Shown in pieces: positions 4,531-9,432 of a DNA stretch of 30,130 bases. The stretch lies in assembly GCA_964470075.1 (NCBI GenBank), contig CAYYAH010000001.1:1-30130 (forward strand), written 5' to 3'. The DNA is from an uncultured Candidatus Poseidoniales archaeon (GTDB lineage Archaea; Thermoplasmatota; Poseidoniia; Poseidoniales; Thalassarchaeaceae). The notes beneath the pieces are model-generated. The model saw only the letters and a program-made list of their open reading frames with translations, made no database searches and had not been told where the DNA came from. Position numbers and translations under genes: made by a program. The first letter of the stretch is position 1. Each line of letters begins with the position of its first letter.

Positions 4531-6300
4531 CTAATTGCCCCTCCAGTAACCAGGTAATTCCAGCTGTGTGACCGCGAACGCTTGCTCGGTCGAAGAGAAT
4601 TTTCTCTTGATCTCTCGTGCGCGTGCGGATACCAGACGCCAAGCGCCCTTACTGCTGATTCCAGGAATCGATTGTAACTGGTGTTGTGTCGCTGTGTTCA
4701 CATCGAGCCCTAGTTCGACCCCGGTTATACTACGCTTACCGTGGCCTGTAACCATGATGTCAGATGATGTTTCGAGGGGGATTCTATAGGGAACTCCGAC
4801 AAGAATCGGATATGCTCCAATCTGTCGACCGAAGGTTACTCCGGGCTTCCCTCGGATGTCCTCATTCCGGTACTTCGGGTCGAGAACTTGTTCGGGCCTT
4901 CGTATTCGGTCATCTTGTGCCTCCCACCAGATTTCCCTGAGGATGGTCCCAGTGGGTAGCATCTCCTCTAGGAGAGGTGAATCAATTTCATTCCTGACCT
5001 CTCTTTTGAATTTCTTGAAGGAGTTCTCAGGTACCTCTTGGAAGCCCTGCCCCTCGACCTGTCTGATGTTTATTCTCCTAAGCCAGAGGCCCTCAGACCT
5101 CAGGGTTCTGAGGAGTTCCATATTCATCTGGTAGCTCGCCTCTGTCTCGCCATTCAATCCGGCGATGAAATTGAGTCCAGGGAGGAGTTTTGGAAGTCCC
5201 CTAGCTCCCCTACTTCTGCCGAAATCATTGATGTGTCTGACGGCAGTCTTGAGTTGCTCAGGGTTGCAGTTCAACCAGTTCTGTTCGTGTACCTCCGGGT
5301 CAGCCGACTCAAGTCCGAATGAGAGGACTGCTCCGTCAGATAGTGTGTCTACGAGTGTTCTGGTTATCTCAGTCGAAGGCTCAATGCTCTCAGCCACAAT
5401 TGAGGGATTTGCGTTATCGACATGTAGAATCTGAATCCTGTCGTCATCGCGCGCGCCATGCAGTACTTTTGCTATTGGTTCGGGATTTGGAATTGGGTAC
5501 TCTAACTCCTCTACTCCTTCCGCCTTGTAAGTGTAGATATCTGTAGCCCCTCCTATCCTGATATTGACGACTCCAGAATCCAATGCTGCTGTGATCTCTG
5601 TCAATACGTCTTCCTCGGAGCGCCATAGAGGCAAGCCCTTCTTCGGCTCGATACAGAATCTGCAGCCGCGTTTGAATCGAACGCATCCCTGATACAGTTC
5701 AATCTCGTAAGTCAGCGGACCTAATCTGCCATCTTCTGCTATCAGATCGGGATGGTCCGTTACGGCCCTAGAAGAGGCTCCTGAGAGTGCCCAATTAGAC
5801 CACTGCTCAGGAGTTCTCTTTCGGTGCTCCCAGATTCCTGTCGAGATGAAGTTATCGAGGGTCGCATCGGTGTCTTGGACGGCGCAGAACAGGTTGGAGC
5901 GTAATGGAGTCCAGCCGTCATACCTCCAATGACGTATAGCCCACCCTCCACACAGAACTGGTGAGGATGAAGGAATAATCGAAAGTACCTCGTCGAGTTC
6001 CTTTCGACTAATCGGAGTGCCTCTGACATATTTCCCAGGAACTATTGCCCCTGCAAGAATCACTGCACCGTCAAGTCCTGATAGTTCACTGCGTAGAGAT
6101 ATTCTTTCCTCCGGATTGGAGAGGCGTTCCTTGTGGTGCAGCCTCCACTGATCGATTGTCATGTAGTTGTAAGGAATTCCACGGGACTCCAGAACGCCGC
6201 AGATGTATCTGATATGAAAGCCAAGGTAGTTCGGGACTCCGAACGCAGCGGGCTCATCCTCGTATCCGTCTAGGACAAGCCAACCTTCCAGTTGTTCCAC
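4531..6300 (-). CDS. Radical SAM protein with C-terminal helix-hairpin-helix (COG1031-like)
   Basis: N-terminal LDGYEDEPAAFGVPNY; YEIELYQGCVRFKRGCRFC (Cx6Cx2C); GLESAD; TFGRQIGAYPILVG; HhH DVNTATQHQLQSIPGIS. GTG start. Confidence 0.88.
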   Translation of the reverse strand: MEQLEGWLVLDGYEDEPAAFGVPNYLGFHIRYICGVLESRGIPYNYMTIDQWRLHHKERLSNPEERISLRSELSGLDGAVILAGAIVPGKYVRGTPISRKELDEVLSIIPSSSPVLCGGWAIRHWRYDGWTPLRSNLFCAVQDTDATLDNFISTGIWEHRKRTPEQWSNWALSGASSRAVTDHPDLIAEDGRLGPLTYEIELYQGCVRFKRGCRFCIEPKKGLPLWRSEEDVLTEITAALDSGVVNIRIGGATDIYTYKAEGVEELEYPIPNPEPIAKVLHGARDDDRIQILHVDNANPSIVAESIEPSTEITRTLVDTLSDGAVLSFGLESADPEVHEQNWLNCNPEQLKTAVRHINDFGRSRGARGLPKLLPGLNFIAGLNGETEASYQMNMELLRTLRSEGLWLRRINIRQVEGQGFQEVPENSFKKFKREVRNEIDSPLLEEMLPTGTILREIWWEAQDDRIRRPEQVLDPKYRNEDIRGKPGVTFGRQIGAYPILVGVPYRIPLETSSDIMVTGHGKRSITGVELGLDVNTATQHQLQSIPGISSKGAWRLVSARAREIKRKFSSTEQAFAVTQLELPGYWRGN

Positions 6301-6336: not shown

Positions 6337-7599
6337 CTAGTTTCGGCGGGGTCGACGTCGGCCACGGCCTCCACTTGGTTTGGATTCCTGGACCGTTATC
6401 TTGCGAGAATGAATCTCGGTGTCGTTGAGTTCTTTGATTGCAGACGTACCTTCTTTCTTGCTCGAAAAAGTGACGAATGCGAATCCTTTGGAGCGGCCAG
6501 TTTCCTTGTCTGTCGCGATATGAACGTCCTTGAGATTCCCATGGGCTGAAAATATCTCTCTGAGTTCGTCCTCGGTTGCATCGTAAGATAGTCCTCCTAC
6601 AAACAGCTTGGCTCCCATCGACTCCTCGGCCTTCGACCTAGCAGCTACCAGAGTCTTTCTCTCATTGGCTAGTTCTTCCTTAGTGGCCGTGCCTTCCTTG
6701 ACCTTGTCCATACAGTCTCTGCACCTGATTGGCTTGCCAGGAGTTGGTTTGAACGGAACTTCGGTCTTGGTTCCACAAAGAGTGCATGTTGTCGGGTGCA
6801 TCTCCCTCCTAGGTCTACCTCCTCCTCTGCCGCCACCTGCTTGGGCAGCTCGCTGGCGTCGGATAGACTCGGGAATCTCGTGAGACATTCCTCTGCGGTG
6901 ATCTGCTACTGGAGAAAGGTAGGGGCGAGCGCCGTCATGGCCCAACATCGCTTCAGCTTCGGCAGACCAACGGGCACCGGGGCGGTTGAGCGACTGGATA
7001 TCCTCACCGAGAGTGTGACCATGGCCGAAGCCGTTCGACAGAACTCGGAATCCAGTATAGTCGCAACGAGAACAAGTGACATTGAAATCTGGAGTCTCGC
7101 TACTGGCCTCGAGATCAAGTCCACACTGAGGACAGATGGCGTGTAAGACCCCTAGATTGGGGTCGTCGCGAGTTGTTGCCTTCATCATAGGTTCGAGTTC
7201 GGTTACACGGGCCCGGATGATGTCTCTCTTGCGCATCGCGTCGCCGGCAGAAGGAAGGAAACGGTCGACGAAATTGGTGACATAAATGTCCGCGAACAAC
7301 TCTTCTGCAGGGACATCTCTGTGGCCTCCTTCCTTGTCCTCAATGTGAAGAACTCTGACCTCTGCGGTCTTGGGATTGATTCGGTTGACTTCGGCGATGA
7401 TAACATCACCAATCTGAGGAGAATTGACAGATGGCCGAGAAGAATCTACAGAGATTGTGCCCTCACTGTGGACTAGGGTTCCTGTGACGATTGCTACTGA
7501 GCCCGATGAATCAGTGTAAATGCCATCTCCTGCATCTACTCCCTCAGGAATGACAATGCTTGAACCGGGCGTGACGAAGTCCCCTGACTCAGCAGTCAT
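6337..7599 (-). CDS. csl4: Exosome cap subunit Csl4 fused to CxxC-x17-CxxC zinc finger and RRM domain
   Basis: FVTPG N-terminus, S1 domain (PQIGDVIIAEV...DIIRARV), zinc ribbon LGVLHAICPQC..CSRC. Then CTLC-x17-CRDC, then RNP2 KLFVGGL and RNP1 RSKGFAFVTF. Start moved to MTAESG (7599); track start 7659 overlaps the upstream stop. Confidence 0.88.
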   Translation of the reverse strand: MTAESGDFVTPGSSIVIPEGVDAGDGIYTDSSGSVAIVTGTLVHSEGTISVDSSRPSVNSPQIGDVIIAEVNRINPKTAEVRVLHIEDKEGGHRDVPAEELFADIYVTNFVDRFLPSAGDAMRKRDIIRARVTELEPMMKATTRDDPNLGVLHAICPQCGLDLEASSETPDFNVTCSRCDYTGFRVLSNGFGHGHTLGEDIQSLNRPGARWSAEAEAMLGHDGARPYLSPVADHRRGMSHEIPESIRRQRAAQAGGGRGGGRPRREMHPTTCTLCGTKTEVPFKPTPGKPIRCRDCMDKVKEGTATKEELANERKTLVAARSKAEESMGAKLFVGGLSYDATEDELREIFSAHGNLKDVHIATDKETGRSKGFAFVTFSSKKEGTSAIKELNDTEIHSRKITVQESKPSGGRGRRRPRRN

Positions 7600-7655
7600 C
7601 GGCCCGCCGACCGGACAACCCCCTATGAACGGTCCGGCCGGGTTGAGCCGTAGGC

Positions 7656-8270
7656 TCATGGTGGCAATAGGCGCCAGAAAGCGGCTCTAGTCTTGCCTCT
7701 CTGTCTGCTGTGATGAGAATACGCTGCTGGCAGTGCAAAGTCGGCCTCGCCGTATCTCTCAACGGACCACCCGTGCTCCTCGAACAGAGGCTCGATGTGG
7801 CTTGACTCTGCACTATGCATGAGGTGCGAGGGTGTTCGAGCAGCTAGTATGGCATCGAGGAATGGGCGATCCGCCTTGGGAGATTGTCGACCCCATGGAG
7901 GGTTGCTGATTATGACGTCAACTGAGTCTAGCTCAATCGAATCGTTTCCAATACTGGCTTGAGTGACTTCAACCAAGTCGGTGAATCCCAACTTATCTGC
8001 ATTTTTACTAGCTATATCGCAGGCGGTCTGATCGACCTCAATCAGAGTTGTTCTCCCTGCACCGAGTGCGATGGCGCCCAAGCCGAGCACCCCATTCCCT
8101 GCTCCCAAATCAGCAACTGAGCAGCCCTCATGCAAGTCGCCGAAGGTGGAAATGTCGGTTAGCCATCGAGCAGCTAAGTCTCCATTGGTAGAGTATTGCT
8201 CGAGTTCGACCGATTGAAATTGAATTTGCTCGAGACTAGAGAGCAACATCGCCAGCCTCCTGACTCGCAT
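7656..8270 (-). CDS. METTL5-family (COG2263) N6-adenine RNA methyltransferase
   Basis: ELEQYST, SAM-binding DLGAGNGVLG, catalytic NPPW. Adjacent to csl4 as commonly seen in Euryarchaeota. Likely start MRVRRL (8270). Confidence 0.87.
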   Translation of the reverse strand: MRVRRLAMLLSSLEQIQFQSVELEQYSTNGDLAARWLTDISTFGDLHEGCSVADLGAGNGVLGLGAIALGAGRTTLIEVDQTACDIASKNADKLGFTDLVEVTQASIGNDSIELDSVDVIISNPPWGRQSPKADRPFLDAILAARTPSHLMHSAESSHIEPLFEEHGWSVERYGEADFALPAAYSHHSRQRGKTRAAFWRLLPP

Positions 8271-8373
8271 GATTACCGAAAGTCCGTCCCTCCTAAGAAC
8301 CAATTTAGAGTTCTGACTTAATTGGGCCTCTCATAGTTCAAATACTCCCGATTTCAATTATCTGTCGAGCCCG

Positions 8374-9432
8374 ATGTCTGATATGCTATCCTACGGTCTT
8401 CTAGCCATCGTAATTGGACTTGTAATCCTACTGGTATATGCTCTTTCTCTGCTGAAATCAATACAACAGGAGTCTGCAATGATTCGTGACCAAGCTGCTC
8501 AGATTCACACGCAGGGAGAAGTTAACAAGGAGGCAATTGGGAATTTGGATTTCTCTGTCAAACCGGAAGTCATCACCGCGGGAATAGCCGCTAGTGGAGA
8601 GACTCTGAAGGGGGCTGTCGCAGGCACAATGAAAGATCTGAAGATTTCCGAGGACATTGGAAACATCAGGAGTTCTGCAGATTCTGTGGCCAGCGAGGTA
8701 GCAGAGATACAGAAGATATTCCTCGACAAGCAAGCTGCCGCTGGTTGGGCAGAGATAGAATTGGAGAGGATATTGAAGGACTCCTTCGCTAATGTTAGCA
8801 TCAGGAAAAAGGTTCCGAAACTAGATAGTATTCCAGATGCTAGTCTGAAACTATCAGACGGTAGAATCCTTTGTATCGACTCAAAGTTCCCGGTTAAAGC
8901 GTTCAGAGATACTCTGGCTGCTTCAGAGGGAGGCGAGGGTGGCGAGGACGGCAGATCCCGAGTTGGTAGTAAGAAGGCGTTTCTTGAGGCAGTCAAGGGA
9001 CATATCGCCAAAGTCGAGTCGAGTTACATCAGACCTGATTTAGGGACTACCGAAATCGCGTATCTGTATATTGCATCTGAGAGAATATACGACTACATGA
9101 TTACTCCAGACAATCAAGAGGAGTCAGCACTTATTCGGGATGCAGCAAGTAGAGGGGTTGTCGTCTGCTCGCCGAACACTATGATTGCAAATATGCATCT
9201 TCTACATATCTCTGAGAGGGCTATGGGGATTGCTGAGAAGTCAGATGAAATTATCAGAGGTCATGCGCGTCTCAGGAACGATTTGAATATCCTGCATTCT
9301 GTTTGGGGAACTCTCAGCTCTCAGATTAGTAACTCCTATGCGAACCGTACCAAACTGCAGGAATCGATGGAATCCCTAGAGCGAGCGTTGGACTCACTCG
9401 AGAGTCTAGATCTGAGTGGGGATGAAGACTGA
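8374..9432 (+). CDS. rmuC: RmuC-family DNA recombination protein
   Basis: N-terminal TM, coiled coil, PD..ILCIDSKFP nuclease-like motif, YIRPDLGTTEIAYLYIASE, VVVCSPNT. Confidence 0.85.
   Translation: MSDMLSYGLLAIVIGLVILLVYALSLLKSIQQESAMIRDQAAQIHTQGEVNKEAIGNLDFSVKPEVITAGIAASGETLKGAVAGTMKDLKISEDIGNIRSSADSVASEVAEIQKIFLDKQAAAGWAEIELERILKDSFANVSIRKKVPKLDSIPDASLKLSDGRILCIDSKFPVKAFRDTLAASEGGEGGEDGRSRVGSKKAFLEAVKGHIAKVESSYIRPDLGTTEIAYLYIASERIYDYMITPDNQEESALIRDAASRGVVVCSPNTMIANMHLLHISERAMGIAEKSDEIIRGHARLRNDLNILHSVWGTLSSQISNSYANRTKLQESMESLERALDSLESLDLSGDED

What the first reader, a model, noticed from the sequence alone, without database searches (positions are those of the whole stretch)
6337..7599. 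Exosome subunit Csl4 with a built-in zinc-finger + RRM + Arg/Gly RNA-capture arm
Seen: one uninterrupted frame with Csl4 (7599-7024), a ~70-aa linker ending GGGRGGGRPRR, CxxC-x17-CxxC (6807-6712), an RRM with intact RNP1/RNP2 (6609-6376) and a GRGRRRPRRN tail. Known: archaeal Csl4 is normally about 190 aa, RRMs are rare in archaea, and the zinc finger matches the TIGR04272 type. Eukaryotic exosomes recruit substrates through separate RRM and zinc-knuckle adaptors (RBM7/ZCCHC8 in NEXT, Air1/2 in TRAMP). Inference: a convergent, covalently attached targeting adaptor for the archaeal exosome. I know of no description of this fusion. Strongest candidate for a new system in this window.
Basis: partly seen in the sequence, partly recalled or inferred. 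Interest (0 to 1): 0.78.

Follow-up and report, generated by a model that had tools for sequence, protein, structure and literature searches.

The report
Exosome cap Csl4 with RNA-binding arm
In Marine Group II ocean archaea the only gene for Csl4, a lid subunit of the RNA-degrading exosome, is a real, conserved fusion to a zinc finger, an RRM RNA-binding domain and arginine/glycine tails, which probably gives the machine a built-in arm for catching RNA, although nobody has tested this.

Summary
Window 6337-7599 (-) is one 420-aa gene made of a Csl4 core, a conserved extension, an RG linker, a CxxC-x17-CxxC zinc finger, a spacer helix, an RRM and a basic tail. It is not an artefact. Hundreds of independent assemblies carry the gene. 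Every Thalassarchaeaceae (MGIIb) genome searched has this architecture. Poseidoniaceae (MGIIa) have Csl4 + extension + two RRMs and no zinc finger. A third Poseidoniales variant has one RRM. Sister lineages of the same class have plain Csl4 at the same locus, after the same methyltransferase, and carry free-standing RRM and RGG-zinc-finger genes elsewhere. The genome encodes Rrp4, Rrp41 and Rrp42, and relatives keep DnaG. All arm domains are under purifying selection. The most conserved stretch of all is a predicted-disordered motif (aa 221-243) inside the supposed linker. The best reading is an exosome cap subunit with a tethered RNA-capture arm. This is supported by a published engineered Csl4-RBD fusion that works in vitro, but it is untested here. 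I found no paper describing the fusion. This scan has already followed up the same fusion on at least eight other genomes. It is a new variant of a known kind, of moderate interest.

The parts
6337..7599 (-). Whole gene: 420 codons plus the stop (6337-6339). It is the only Csl4, the only RRM and the only zf_Tbcl_2 found in this 63%-complete genome.
7027..7581 (-). Csl4 core (aa 7-191): N-terminal domain, S1 domain and Zn ribbon with Cys156/159/176/179. It is acidic (pI 4.5, computed on aa 1-191).
   Evidence: NF034126 at 93 bits; Foldseek 2ba1_A, TM 0.73; the four Cys are invariant in 24 sequences; pI
6871..7026 (-). Poseidoniales-specific extension (aa 192-243). It comprises GFGHG, a predicted helix LNRPGxRWSxEAE (201-218), and then the motif LGHDGARPYLSPVADHRRG (221-243), which is predicted disordered but is the most conserved segment. 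It is absent from the plain Csl4 of MGIII, f51 and other families that I read.
   Evidence: Invariant G192 G194 G208 R210 W211 D233 R235 across MGIIa and MGIIb; pairwise identity 0.82 for aa 221-243; pLDDT below 50; the plain Csl4 proteins end at ...YGxG
6808..6870 (-). Arg/Gly-rich linker (aa 244-264, pI 12). It is poorly conserved and predicted disordered.
6700..6807 (-). CxxC-x17-CxxC treble-clef zinc finger (aa 265-300; Cys272/275/293/296).
   Evidence: PF23477 and TIGR04272; 61% identical over 38 aa to a free-standing 60-66 aa protein of a sister family; lowest pN of all regions, 0.01-0.05
6616..6699 (-). Charged spacer helix (aa 301-328; modelled helix 307-328).
   Evidence: the least constrained folded part
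6385..6615 (-). RRM (aa 329-405) with RNP2 LFVGGL and RNP1 KGFAFVTF.
   Evidence: RRM_1 at 77 bits; the fold matches RRMs at TM above 0.9; G372 and F375 are invariant and F373 nearly so
6340..6384 (-). Basic Arg/Gly tail (aa 406-420, pI 12).
7600..7632 (-). Conserved non-coding motif ccgTTCATAGGgggttgtccggtcg, 10-33 nt upstream of the ATG at 7599. It is probably a TATA-type promoter of a leaderless mRNA (inference).
   Evidence: The DNA is conserved in the window's genus, G075 and G092 although the reading frames differ
7656..8303 (-). Upstream small-domain (MTS) methyltransferase. It is the conserved partner of csl4 in MGIIa, MGIIb, MGIII, f51 and a more distant Thermoplasmatota contig, and so marks positional orthology.
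4531..6300 (-). Downstream radical-SAM + helix-hairpin-helix protein. It lies directly after the fused csl4 in all eight Poseidoniales loci whose downstream sequence was held, at 60-70% identity. It was not found after the plain Csl4 in MGIII or f51.

Best explanation
The gene encodes the Csl4 cap subunit of the archaeal exosome of a Thalassarchaeaceae (Marine Group II b) archaeon. Its exposed C-terminus has permanently acquired a tethered, basic RNA-binding arm.

Shown here:
- The N-terminal 191 aa are a complete Csl4 (N-terminal domain, S1, four-Cys Zn ribbon).
- It is the sole Csl4 in the genome.
- It sits at the orthologous locus, after the same methyltransferase as plain Csl4 in sister lineages.
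- The genome encodes Rrp4, Rrp41 and Rrp42.
- The arm consists of a conserved extension, an RG linker, a Zn finger, a spacer helix, an RRM with intact RNP motifs and an RG tail.
- Every folded part of the arm is under purifying selection.

Inferred:
- The Csl4 core docks on the Rrp41/Rrp42 ring as usual.
- Up to three arms per complex project from the cap on disordered tethers of about 40-60 residues.
- The arms bind single-stranded RNA through the RRM beta-sheet. The zinc finger and the RG stretches add affinity.
- This raises the local concentration of RNA 3' ends at the S1 pore, and so increases and biases substrate capture for phosphorolytic decay or tailing.

The family-specific cargo (zf + RRM in MGIIb, RRM + RRM in MGIIa, a single RRM in a third lineage) on a shared extension suggests that substrate preference has been retuned between lineages. 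The strongly conserved disordered motif at aa 221-243 is most likely a docking site for another protein, or a contact back onto the complex.
For: Identity and reality:
- Domain hits, structure.
- More than 500 homologous clusters from NCBI, JGI, ENA, Tara and Logan, on contigs up to 336 kb.
- 10 of 10 MGIIb genomes and 19 of 20 MGIIa genomes carry a fused frame.
- Short metatranscriptome contigs tile 6580-7173 without indels.

Exosome context:
- Rrp4-Rrp41-Rrp42 lie on contig C65.
- This is the only Csl4.
- Synteny is MTase - csl4 in both fused and plain lineages.

Selection:
- pN is 0.01-0.15 against pS 0.55-0.85 in every domain.
- RNP aromatic residues and all eight Cys are conserved.

The arm is basic (pI 9.9) and the core acidic (pI 4.5).

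Feasibility:
- Hou et al. 2014 (PMC4227792) fused an RNA-binding domain to the C-terminus of S. solfataricus Csl4.
- The chimera gained the added domain's strong poly(A) binding, and with it the exosome degraded A-rich RNA faster.
- They chose the C-terminus because the Csl4 N-terminal domain anchors the protein to the ring.

Zinc binding by this finger family was shown by ICP-MS for M. mazei small proteins (PMC12704099).

The same site has been extended repeatedly. Arg/Gly tails follow plain Csl4 in other Thermoplasmatota.

In Poseidoniales the only RRMs found are those on Csl4, whereas sister lineages have free RRM genes.
Against: - There is no experiment on this protein or on any Poseidoniales exosome, and the organisms are uncultured.
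- Binding of this divergent Csl4 core to the ring is not shown. The core scores 93 bits against 150-205 bits elsewhere in the phylum, and the complex prediction gave no verdict.
- RRMs can also mediate protein contacts, and no RNA specificity can be read from the sequence.
- DnaG, the known Csl4-dependent RNA-binding partner, is retained, so the arm is not needed to fill a gap.
- The metatranscriptome evidence consists of short contigs, and RNA libraries can contain DNA.
Confidence: 0.6

Rival explanations
1. The arm is mainly a protein-docking or regulatory module rather than a substrate catcher. The conserved disordered motif (aa 221-243), and perhaps the RRM used as a protein-binding surface, would tether the exosome to another machine such as the ribosome, aRNase J/ASH-Ski2 or DnaG. 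Alternatively they could fold back to gate the S1 pore (autoinhibition).
For: - Aa 221-243 is the most conserved segment (0.82 pairwise identity) yet is predicted disordered. This is typical of a short linear docking motif.
- MGIIa has a different but equally conserved sequence at this position (0.80), and a second conserved tail motif, SSRELQAMREEE.
- Archaeal exosomes are known to associate with DnaG through Csl4 (PMC3672285; PMC4227792).
Against: - The RNP1 and RNP2 aromatic residues that contact RNA are conserved in all variants.
- The RG stretches and the basic tail are classic RNA-binding elements.
- Docking and RNA capture are not mutually exclusive.
Confidence: 0.15
2. The arm takes over, or competes with, the role of DnaG as the RNA-binding accessory of the Csl4-exosome. 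In this reading the Poseidoniales exosome works without DnaG, and DnaG is kept for another function.
For: - Poseidoniales DnaG has the lowest scores in the phylum (319-355 bits against 418-548).
- In most of these genomes only profile positions 1 to about 280 match. The C-terminal domain, which binds the exosome in S. solfataricus, is not recognised (PMC4227792).
- The arm starts directly after the Csl4 Zn ribbon.
Against: - DnaG is present in 26 of 26 Poseidoniales genomes searched.
- The same truncated profile match occurs in families with plain Csl4 (f4, f29, f38), so it is not specific to the fusion.
- Poseidoniales Rrp41, Rrp42 and Csl4 also score low, which points to general divergence in the lineage.
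Confidence: 0.1
3. The protein moonlights or acts mainly outside the exosome as a general RNA chaperone or cold-type RNA-binding protein, as small bacterial RRM proteins do. In this reading the Csl4 part contributes only its S1 domain.
For: - The RRM resembles the bacterial/cyanobacterial Rbp type (NF058537, 86 bits, just under the cut-off of 100), and databases name some members 'cold-inducible RNA-binding protein'.
- The lineage has no other RRM gene, so whatever the ancestral free RRM protein did must now be done by this protein or has been lost.
- The Csl4 core is divergent.
Against: - It is the only Csl4 in genomes that keep Rrp4, Rrp41 and Rrp42.
- The N-terminal ring-anchoring domain and the Zn ribbon are conserved.
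- It sits at the orthologous locus.
Confidence: 0.1
4. The fusion is an artefact: an assembly chimera, a read-through of two genes, or a recent loss of a stop codon.
For: - Some databases hold 124-155 aa gene calls that start at internal Met residues.
- One scaffold has a TGA inside the Csl4 part.
Against: - The short calls are contig-end truncations.
- The TGA case is a single scaffold, and its two halves differ in identity to the window.
- The intact frame recurs in hundreds of independent assemblies and in all genera searched, at 51-100% identity within MGIIb, with purifying selection across the junctions.
Confidence: 0.01

Closest known systems
Canonical archaeal Csl4 exosome cap subunit (A. 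fulgidus Csl4 in PDB 2BA1; NCBIfam NF034126; about 180-200 aa)
   Same: It has the same three-domain core (N-terminal domain, S1, four-Cys Zn ribbon), and 2ba1_A is the best structural match. It is a single copy next to the same methyltransferase gene and co-occurs with Rrp4, Rrp41 and Rrp42.
   Different: The window's protein has 229 extra C-terminal residues carrying a conserved extension, a zinc finger, an RRM and RG stretches. Its core sequence is unusually divergent: 93 bits against 150-205 bits in the rest of the phylum.
Engineered Csl4-NT chimera of Hou, Klug and Evguenieva-Hackenberg 2014 (PMC4227792): S. solfataricus Csl4 with the RNA-binding N-terminal domain of DnaG fused to its C-terminus
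   Same: An RNA-binding domain is attached to the C-terminus of full-length Csl4. In vitro the chimera bound poly(A) strongly, as the added domain does, and its exosome degraded A-rich RNA faster. This is the mechanism proposed here.
   Different: The chimera is artificial and carries a different RNA-binding domain without a long tether. The natural arm has three kinds of RNA-binding element plus a conserved linear motif.
Eukaryotic exosome adaptors NEXT (RBM7 RRM + ZCCHC8) and TRAMP (Air1/2 zinc knuckles)
   Same: Functionally, an RRM and zinc modules bring RNA to an exosome whose cap contains Csl4.
   Different: - They are separate proteins that work through the Mtr4 helicase, not covalent parts of Csl4.
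- Their zinc modules are CCHC knuckles, not CxxC-x17-CxxC treble clefs.
- No homology is implied beyond the generic RRM fold.
The resemblance is an analogy recalled from general knowledge and was not tested here.
Small free-standing prokaryotic RRM proteins (Rbp type, NCBIfam NF058537) and free CxxC-x17-CxxC small zinc proteins (TIGR04272; M. mazei proteins shown to bind Zn, PMC12704099)
   Same: - The arm's RRM and finger belong to these families.
- Sister lineages of the same class encode both as separate genes of 60-121 aa, with their own RGG stretches.
- The free finger protein is 61% identical to the arm's finger, including the RPxREMH lead-in.
   Different: Here the two modules are domains of one exosome subunit, and no free copy was found in Poseidoniales. 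The function of the free proteins is unknown.
Csl4 with a plain Arg/Gly-rich C-terminal tail in other Thermoplasmatota (P0272, P0294, G029)
   Same: RNA-binding-type sequence is added at the same place, directly after the Zn ribbon, in the same MTase-csl4 gene context.
   Different: These have only a 70-120 aa low-complexity tail, with no folded RRM or finger and no Poseidoniales extension motif.

Membership tests
Csl4 (exosome cap subunit) | N-terminal domain + S1 domain + C-terminal Zn ribbon, recognised by the family profile over its full length | tested here: met
   NF034126 profile positions 1-178 of 180 match at 93 bits, just above the cut-off of 90. The Foldseek top hit is 2ba1_A (E 3.8e-15, TM 0.73), followed by eukaryotic Csl4 chains.
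Csl4 (exosome cap subunit) | Four zinc-ligand Cys in the ribbon | tested here: met
   C156, C159, C176 and C179 are invariant in 24 sequences.
Csl4 (exosome cap subunit) | Orthology: single copy at the conserved csl4 locus, in a genome with Rrp41, Rrp42 and Rrp4 | tested here: met
   This is the only Csl4 hit over the cut-off. The order MTase-csl4 is shared with plain Csl4 in MGIII, f51 and L057. Rrp4, Rrp41 and Rrp42 lie on C65.
Csl4 (exosome cap subunit) | Physical binding to the Rrp41/Rrp42 ring | tested here: inconclusive
   The complex-prediction job returned no verdict. This needs reconstitution.
RRM (PF00076) | Beta-alpha-beta-beta-alpha-beta fold with RNP2 and RNP1 motifs bearing aromatic residues | tested here: met
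   RRM_1 at 77 bits over profile positions 1-70. The model has the expected strands and helices at aa 330-405 and matches solved RRMs at TM 0.9 or more. The motifs are LFVGGL and KGFAFVTF.
RRM (PF00076) | Binds single-stranded RNA | not testable with these tools
   Needs EMSA, SELEX or CLIP.
CxxC-x17-CxxC zinc finger (TIGR04272 / PF23477 zf_Tbcl_2) | Profile match over the whole ~37-aa domain with exact CxxC-x17-CxxC spacing | tested here: met
   TIGR04272 at 51 bits (cut-off 36) and PF23477 at 50 bits (cut-off 27). The Cys are at 272, 275, 293 and 296.
CxxC-x17-CxxC zinc finger (TIGR04272 / PF23477 zf_Tbcl_2) | Zinc binding | not testable with these tools
   Shown for two M. mazei family members by ICP-MS (PMC12704099), but not for this protein.
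NEXT/TRAMP-type exosome adaptors | CCHC zinc knuckles (CX2CX4HX4C) and action as separate cofactors through an Mtr4-type helicase | tested here: not met
   The sequence has no His-containing knuckle and only two CxxC...CxxC sets. The module is covalently part of Csl4. The protein is therefore not a member, and the resemblance is only a functional analogy. A helicase partner was not searched for.

The most novel reading that the evidence does not exclude
Poseidoniales have turned the exosome cap into a modular, lineage-tuned RNA-targeting device. A shared docking extension on Csl4, with a strongly conserved linear motif for an unknown partner, carries interchangeable recognition cassettes: zf + RRM, RRM + RRM, or a single RRM. 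These cassettes were captured from the lineage's own free-standing small RNA-binding proteins. The result would give a prokaryotic exosome sequence-selective substrate choice of the kind that eukaryotes achieve with separate adaptor complexes. It would also imply that the uncharacterised free RRM and CxxC-x17-CxxC small proteins of other archaea are exosome cofactors.
Probability: 0.3. Interest if true: 0.7.

Novelty: new variant of a known kind. Interest (0 to 1): 0.52.

Why it matters
Marine Group II archaea are among the most abundant archaea of the surface ocean, and they are uncultured. How they control RNA turnover is unknown.

A cap subunit with built-in RNA binders is a natural experiment on how exosomes choose substrates. 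The covalent link says which proteins work together. The three cassette variants offer ready-made specificity swaps. The published engineered Csl4 fusion shows that the idea is testable with recombinant proteins.

The fusion also gives a functional lead for two families of small archaeal proteins with no known role: free RRM proteins and CxxC-x17-CxxC zinc proteins. By the logic of gene fusion, they may act with the exosome.

The fusion does not overturn anything known about exosomes.

Tried and rejected
1. Complex prediction of Csl4 aa 1-262 with the genome's Rrp41 and Rrp42 returned no verdict: score 0.76, against 0.80 for a control in which Rrp42 was replaced. It is not evidence either way.
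2. The split-gene idea is rejected. The 124-155 aa gene calls that start at internal Met residues are contig-end truncations (L025). The exception is one scaffold (L024) with a TGA at the Cys159 codon, and the two halves of that scaffold differ in identity to the window.
3. The longer 440-aa start (ATG at 7659, overlapping the methyltransferase stop as ATGA) is rejected. Homologues start at the Met of 7599. The apparent 'PFIGG' conservation upstream is DNA-level conservation that persists when the frame differs.
4. A tree of 62 RRM domains was built to find the donor. Each fused type and the free MGIII/f51 type are monophyletic (support 99-100), but the backbone is unresolved with 77 columns. 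Neither the donor nor the number of fusion events can be called.
5. The hypothesis that DnaG lost its exosome-binding C-terminal domain because of the arm is inconclusive. The same truncated profile match occurs in families with plain Csl4.
6. Long Csl4 open frames in other families (G335, G082) are only stop-free upstream sequence in GC-rich genomes.
7. A protein-atlas search with the extension (aa 192-264) gave no usable hit.
8. An Rfam scan of the whole window found no RNA family.
9. Literature searches for Csl4 with RRM, with MGII or Poseidoniales, and for RRM with Marine Group II, found no description of the fusion.
Full report
**What is there**

Window 6337..7659 (-) is one open frame. 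The start that fits all homologues is the ATG at 7599, which gives a 420-aa protein, P0001.

Profile searches find three modules:
- Csl4 (NF034126): aa 7-191, profile positions 1-178 of 180, 93 bits against a cut-off of 90.
- A CxxC-x17-CxxC zinc finger (TIGR04272 at 51 bits, PF23477 at 50 bits): aa 265-300.
- An RRM (PF00076): aa 332-402, 77 bits, E 1e-21.

The protein has exactly eight cysteines. They form the Csl4 zinc ribbon (156/159/176/179) and the finger (272/275/293/296). RNP2 is LFVGGL and RNP1 is KGFAFVTF. The Csl4 core is acidic (pI 4.5) and the arm from aa 244 onward is basic (pI 9.9).

An AlphaFold2 model built on a 24-sequence alignment has these features:
- confident Csl4, finger and RRM folds;
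- a helix at aa 201-218;
- a long spacer helix at aa 307-328;
- disorder at aa 221-262 and 408-420.

The best PDB match is A. fulgidus Csl4 (2ba1_A, E 3.8e-15, TM 0.73). Eukaryotic Csl4 chains follow, and the RRM matches solved RRMs at TM 0.9 or more.

**It is real, and it belongs to a clade**

A search of 5.8 billion proteins returned more than 500 clusters. The best 120 are listed: nearly all are full-length (61-100% identical), and a few are shorter calls. They come from NCBI, JGI, ENA, Tara and Logan, on contigs up to 336 kb. The names given include Candidatus Thalassarchaeum, Poseidoniales, 'CxxC-x17-CxxC domain-containing protein', 'cold-inducible RNA-binding protein' and, once, 'exosome complex RNA-binding protein Csl4'.

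The organism is a Marine Group II b archaeon: Thermoplasmatota, Poseidoniia, Poseidoniales, Thalassarchaeaceae.

Short contigs from four marine metatranscriptome runs tile 6580-7173 without indels. This stretch runs from the RRM start through the finger, linker and extension into the Csl4 ribbon. The support is weak, because the pieces are short and RNA libraries can contain DNA.

Gene calls of 124-155 aa that begin at internal Met residues are contig-end truncations. A single scaffold has a TGA in place of the Cys159 codon.

**Distribution**

Across 401 Thermoplasmatota genomes, Csl4 was found in 375. The best-scoring frames, all outside the class, are mostly 185-220 aa.

Searching the class with the whole protein gave the following:
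- Thalassarchaeaceae: 10 of 10 genomes have Csl4 + finger + one RRM in one frame.
- Poseidoniaceae (MGIIa): 19 of 20 have Csl4 + the same extension + two tandem RRMs and no finger. Pfam confirms two RRM_1 stretches and no zf_Tbcl_2.
- The sister family f3 (probably MGIII, judged from its place in the class) has plain Csl4 ending just after the ribbon, plus a free-standing RRM gene on another contig.
- Family f51 has plain Csl4 (186 aa), a free RRM protein with its own RGG tail (121-aa frame), and a free 60-66 aa RGG + finger protein.

That free finger protein is 61% identical over 38 aa to window aa 262-299, including the RPxREMH lead-in. The free RRM is 34% identical.

The exhaustive scan of 1.84 billion cluster representatives used aa 1-262 as query. 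It found only about ten long (387-487 aa) clusters, all of the Poseidoniales type. Otherwise it found canonical Csl4 of 180-200 aa.

That scan also revealed two further architectures:
- A third Poseidoniales form, P0259: Csl4 + extension + one RRM + a Lys-rich tail, in the same gene order.
- Plain Csl4 followed by a 70-120 aa Arg/Gly tail in other Thermoplasmatota (P0272, P0294 and G029).

Gene order supports orthology. The order methyltransferase - csl4 holds in every MGIIa and MGIIb locus, in MGIII, in f51 and in the distant contig L057. In L057, RpoL and TruD follow. In Poseidoniales a radical-SAM/HhH gene follows instead.

My reading is that csl4 was extended in place. The Csl4 C-terminus is a recurrent site for RNA-binding add-ons, and Poseidoniales absorbed modules that their relatives still encode as separate small genes. 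In Poseidoniales no RRM or finger was found outside this gene.

RRMs are patchy in the phylum rather than very rare: 48 of 131 genomes have one.

**The 'linker' is not just a linker**

Aa 192-243 is shared by both families. G192, G194, G208, R210, W211, D233 and R235 are invariant, within the pattern GFGHG ... LNxxGxRW ... AE ... D.R.

Aa 221-243 (LGHDGARPYLSPVADHRRG...) is the most conserved segment of the protein within MGIIb, at 0.82 mean pairwise identity. The comparison values are 0.69 for S1 and 0.62 for the RRM. MGIIa has a different but equally conserved sequence at this position (0.80). The model nevertheless predicts the segment to be disordered. This pattern is typical of a short linear interaction motif, and its partner is unknown.

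Within the genus, synonymous sites are near saturation (pS 0.55-0.85). Non-synonymous differences stay low: finger 0.01-0.05, extension 0.08, core 0.06-0.11, RRM 0.12-0.15. Only the spacer helix and the RG linker are relaxed.

**Exosome context**

The genome is 63% complete. It encodes Rrp4 (cut by a contig end), Rrp41 (310 bits) and Rrp42 (238 bits) in a row on contig C65. This gene is its only Csl4.

DnaG was not found in this incomplete genome. It is present in a same-genus genome (350 bits) and in 26 of 26 Poseidoniales genomes searched.

Poseidoniales DnaG scores are the lowest in the phylum. Most of these proteins match only the N-terminal and TOPRIM parts of the profile. The same is true of families with plain Csl4, so I draw no conclusion from it.

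**Mechanism**

Established knowledge, from PMC3672285 and PMC4227792:
- The Csl4 N-terminal domain anchors the cap subunit on the Rrp41/Rrp42 ring.
- Csl4 itself binds poly(A) poorly.
- DnaG binds through Csl4 and adds RNA affinity.
- An engineered fusion of an RNA-binding domain to the Csl4 C-terminus bound poly(A) strongly, and its exosome degraded A-rich RNA faster.

CxxC-x17-CxxC small proteins of M. mazei bind zinc (PMC12704099).

From this I infer the following. The Poseidoniales Csl4 docks normally. It projects up to three basic arms per complex on disordered tethers. The RRM captures single-stranded RNA, helped by the finger and the RG stretches, and feeds it to the S1 pore.

Rival readings are listed in the rival explanations: protein docking or regulation, replacement of DnaG, and a role outside the exosome. 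None is excluded.

The NEXT/TRAMP comparison is a functional analogy only. The finger is not a CCHC knuckle, and the modules appear to be home-grown.

**Novelty and score**

I found no paper that describes the fusion.

This scan has already followed up the same fusion on at least eight other genomes, with the same conclusion. I reached my reading before seeing those notes and re-tested it here.

- the MGIIa two-RRM and the one-RRM variants;
- the RGG-tail-only Csl4 of other lineages;
- positional orthology with plain Csl4;
- the free-standing precursor-like genes;
- the highly conserved disordered motif;
- the precedent of the engineered fusion.

I do not know whether the earlier follow-ups also noted any of these.

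It is a new variant of a known kind. It is of moderate interest, and the function is untested.

Noticed in passing
window 7600-7632 (-): The DNA motif ccgTTCATAGGgggttgtccggtcg lies 10-33 nt upstream of the csl4 start. It is conserved in the window's genus and two other MGIIb genera although the reading frames differ. It is probably a TATA-type promoter of a leaderless mRNA. Some gene callers translate it as a spurious 'PFIGG' N-terminal extension.
   Followed up: partly
window 4531-6300 (-): A 589-aa radical-SAM + helix-hairpin-helix protein with no NCBIfam family. It lies directly downstream of the fused csl4 in all eight Poseidoniales loci whose downstream sequence was held (60-70% identity). 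It is not found after plain csl4 in MGIII or f51, and it replaces the RpoL gene that follows csl4 elsewhere. A possible functional link was not examined.
   Followed up: partly
L055:582-1529 (-) (G029); proteins P0272 and P0294 (L057:3001-3831): Other Thermoplasmatota have a plain Csl4 followed by a 70-120 aa Arg/Gly-rich tail, in the canonical MTase-csl4-rpoL-truD context. G046 (L054:992-2098) has a shorter tail of about 45 aa.
   Followed up: partly
L056:596-1759 (protein P0259): A Tara Oceans scaffold carries a third architecture: Csl4 + extension + one RRM + a Lys-rich tail with RELNAMLEE, a motif also present in MGIIa tails. It has the same flanking genes as the window.
   Followed up: partly
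L024:524-526 (scaffold SUTE22-1 ... scaffold_3488): One metagenome scaffold has TGA where the window has the TGT codon of Cys159 in the Csl4 zinc ribbon. Its left part is about 85% identical to the window and its right part about 99-100%, so it looks chimeric or recombinant. It could be a sequencing error, a pseudogene or a strain variant.
   Followed up: partly
own genome contig C66, L003:49-909 (-): A bacterial-type RNase PH (TIGR01966, 231 bits against a cut-off of 141) is present alongside the exosome's Rrp41/Rrp42. This is unusual for an archaeon.
   Followed up: no
family f18 of the phylum scan (for example G019, G047, G053, G071): This Thermoplasmatota family mostly lacks a Csl4 match (5 of 24 genomes have one), although 13 of the 19 genomes listed without a match are 80-97% complete. 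It carries 1-3 free-standing RRM genes (11 of 12 genomes).
   Followed up: no
L014:1943-2503 (+) (G193, MGIII-like): The plain Csl4 of this genome keeps only two of the four zinc-ribbon cysteines (…SRCKKS…KCEQSE…), so the ribbon is probably degenerate there.
   Followed up: no
Poseidoniales genomes: DnaG of all 26 Poseidoniales genomes scores 319-355 bits against NF003108, compared with 418-548 bits elsewhere in the phylum. Csl4, Rrp41 and Rrp42 are also low-scoring. The whole exosome set seems fast-evolving in this order.
   Followed up: partly
protein P0284: A 219-aa database protein joins an RmuC-like N-terminus (RmuC is the divergent neighbour at window 8374-9432) to the Csl4 extension and finger. 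It is most likely an assembly or gene-call chimera.
   Followed up: no
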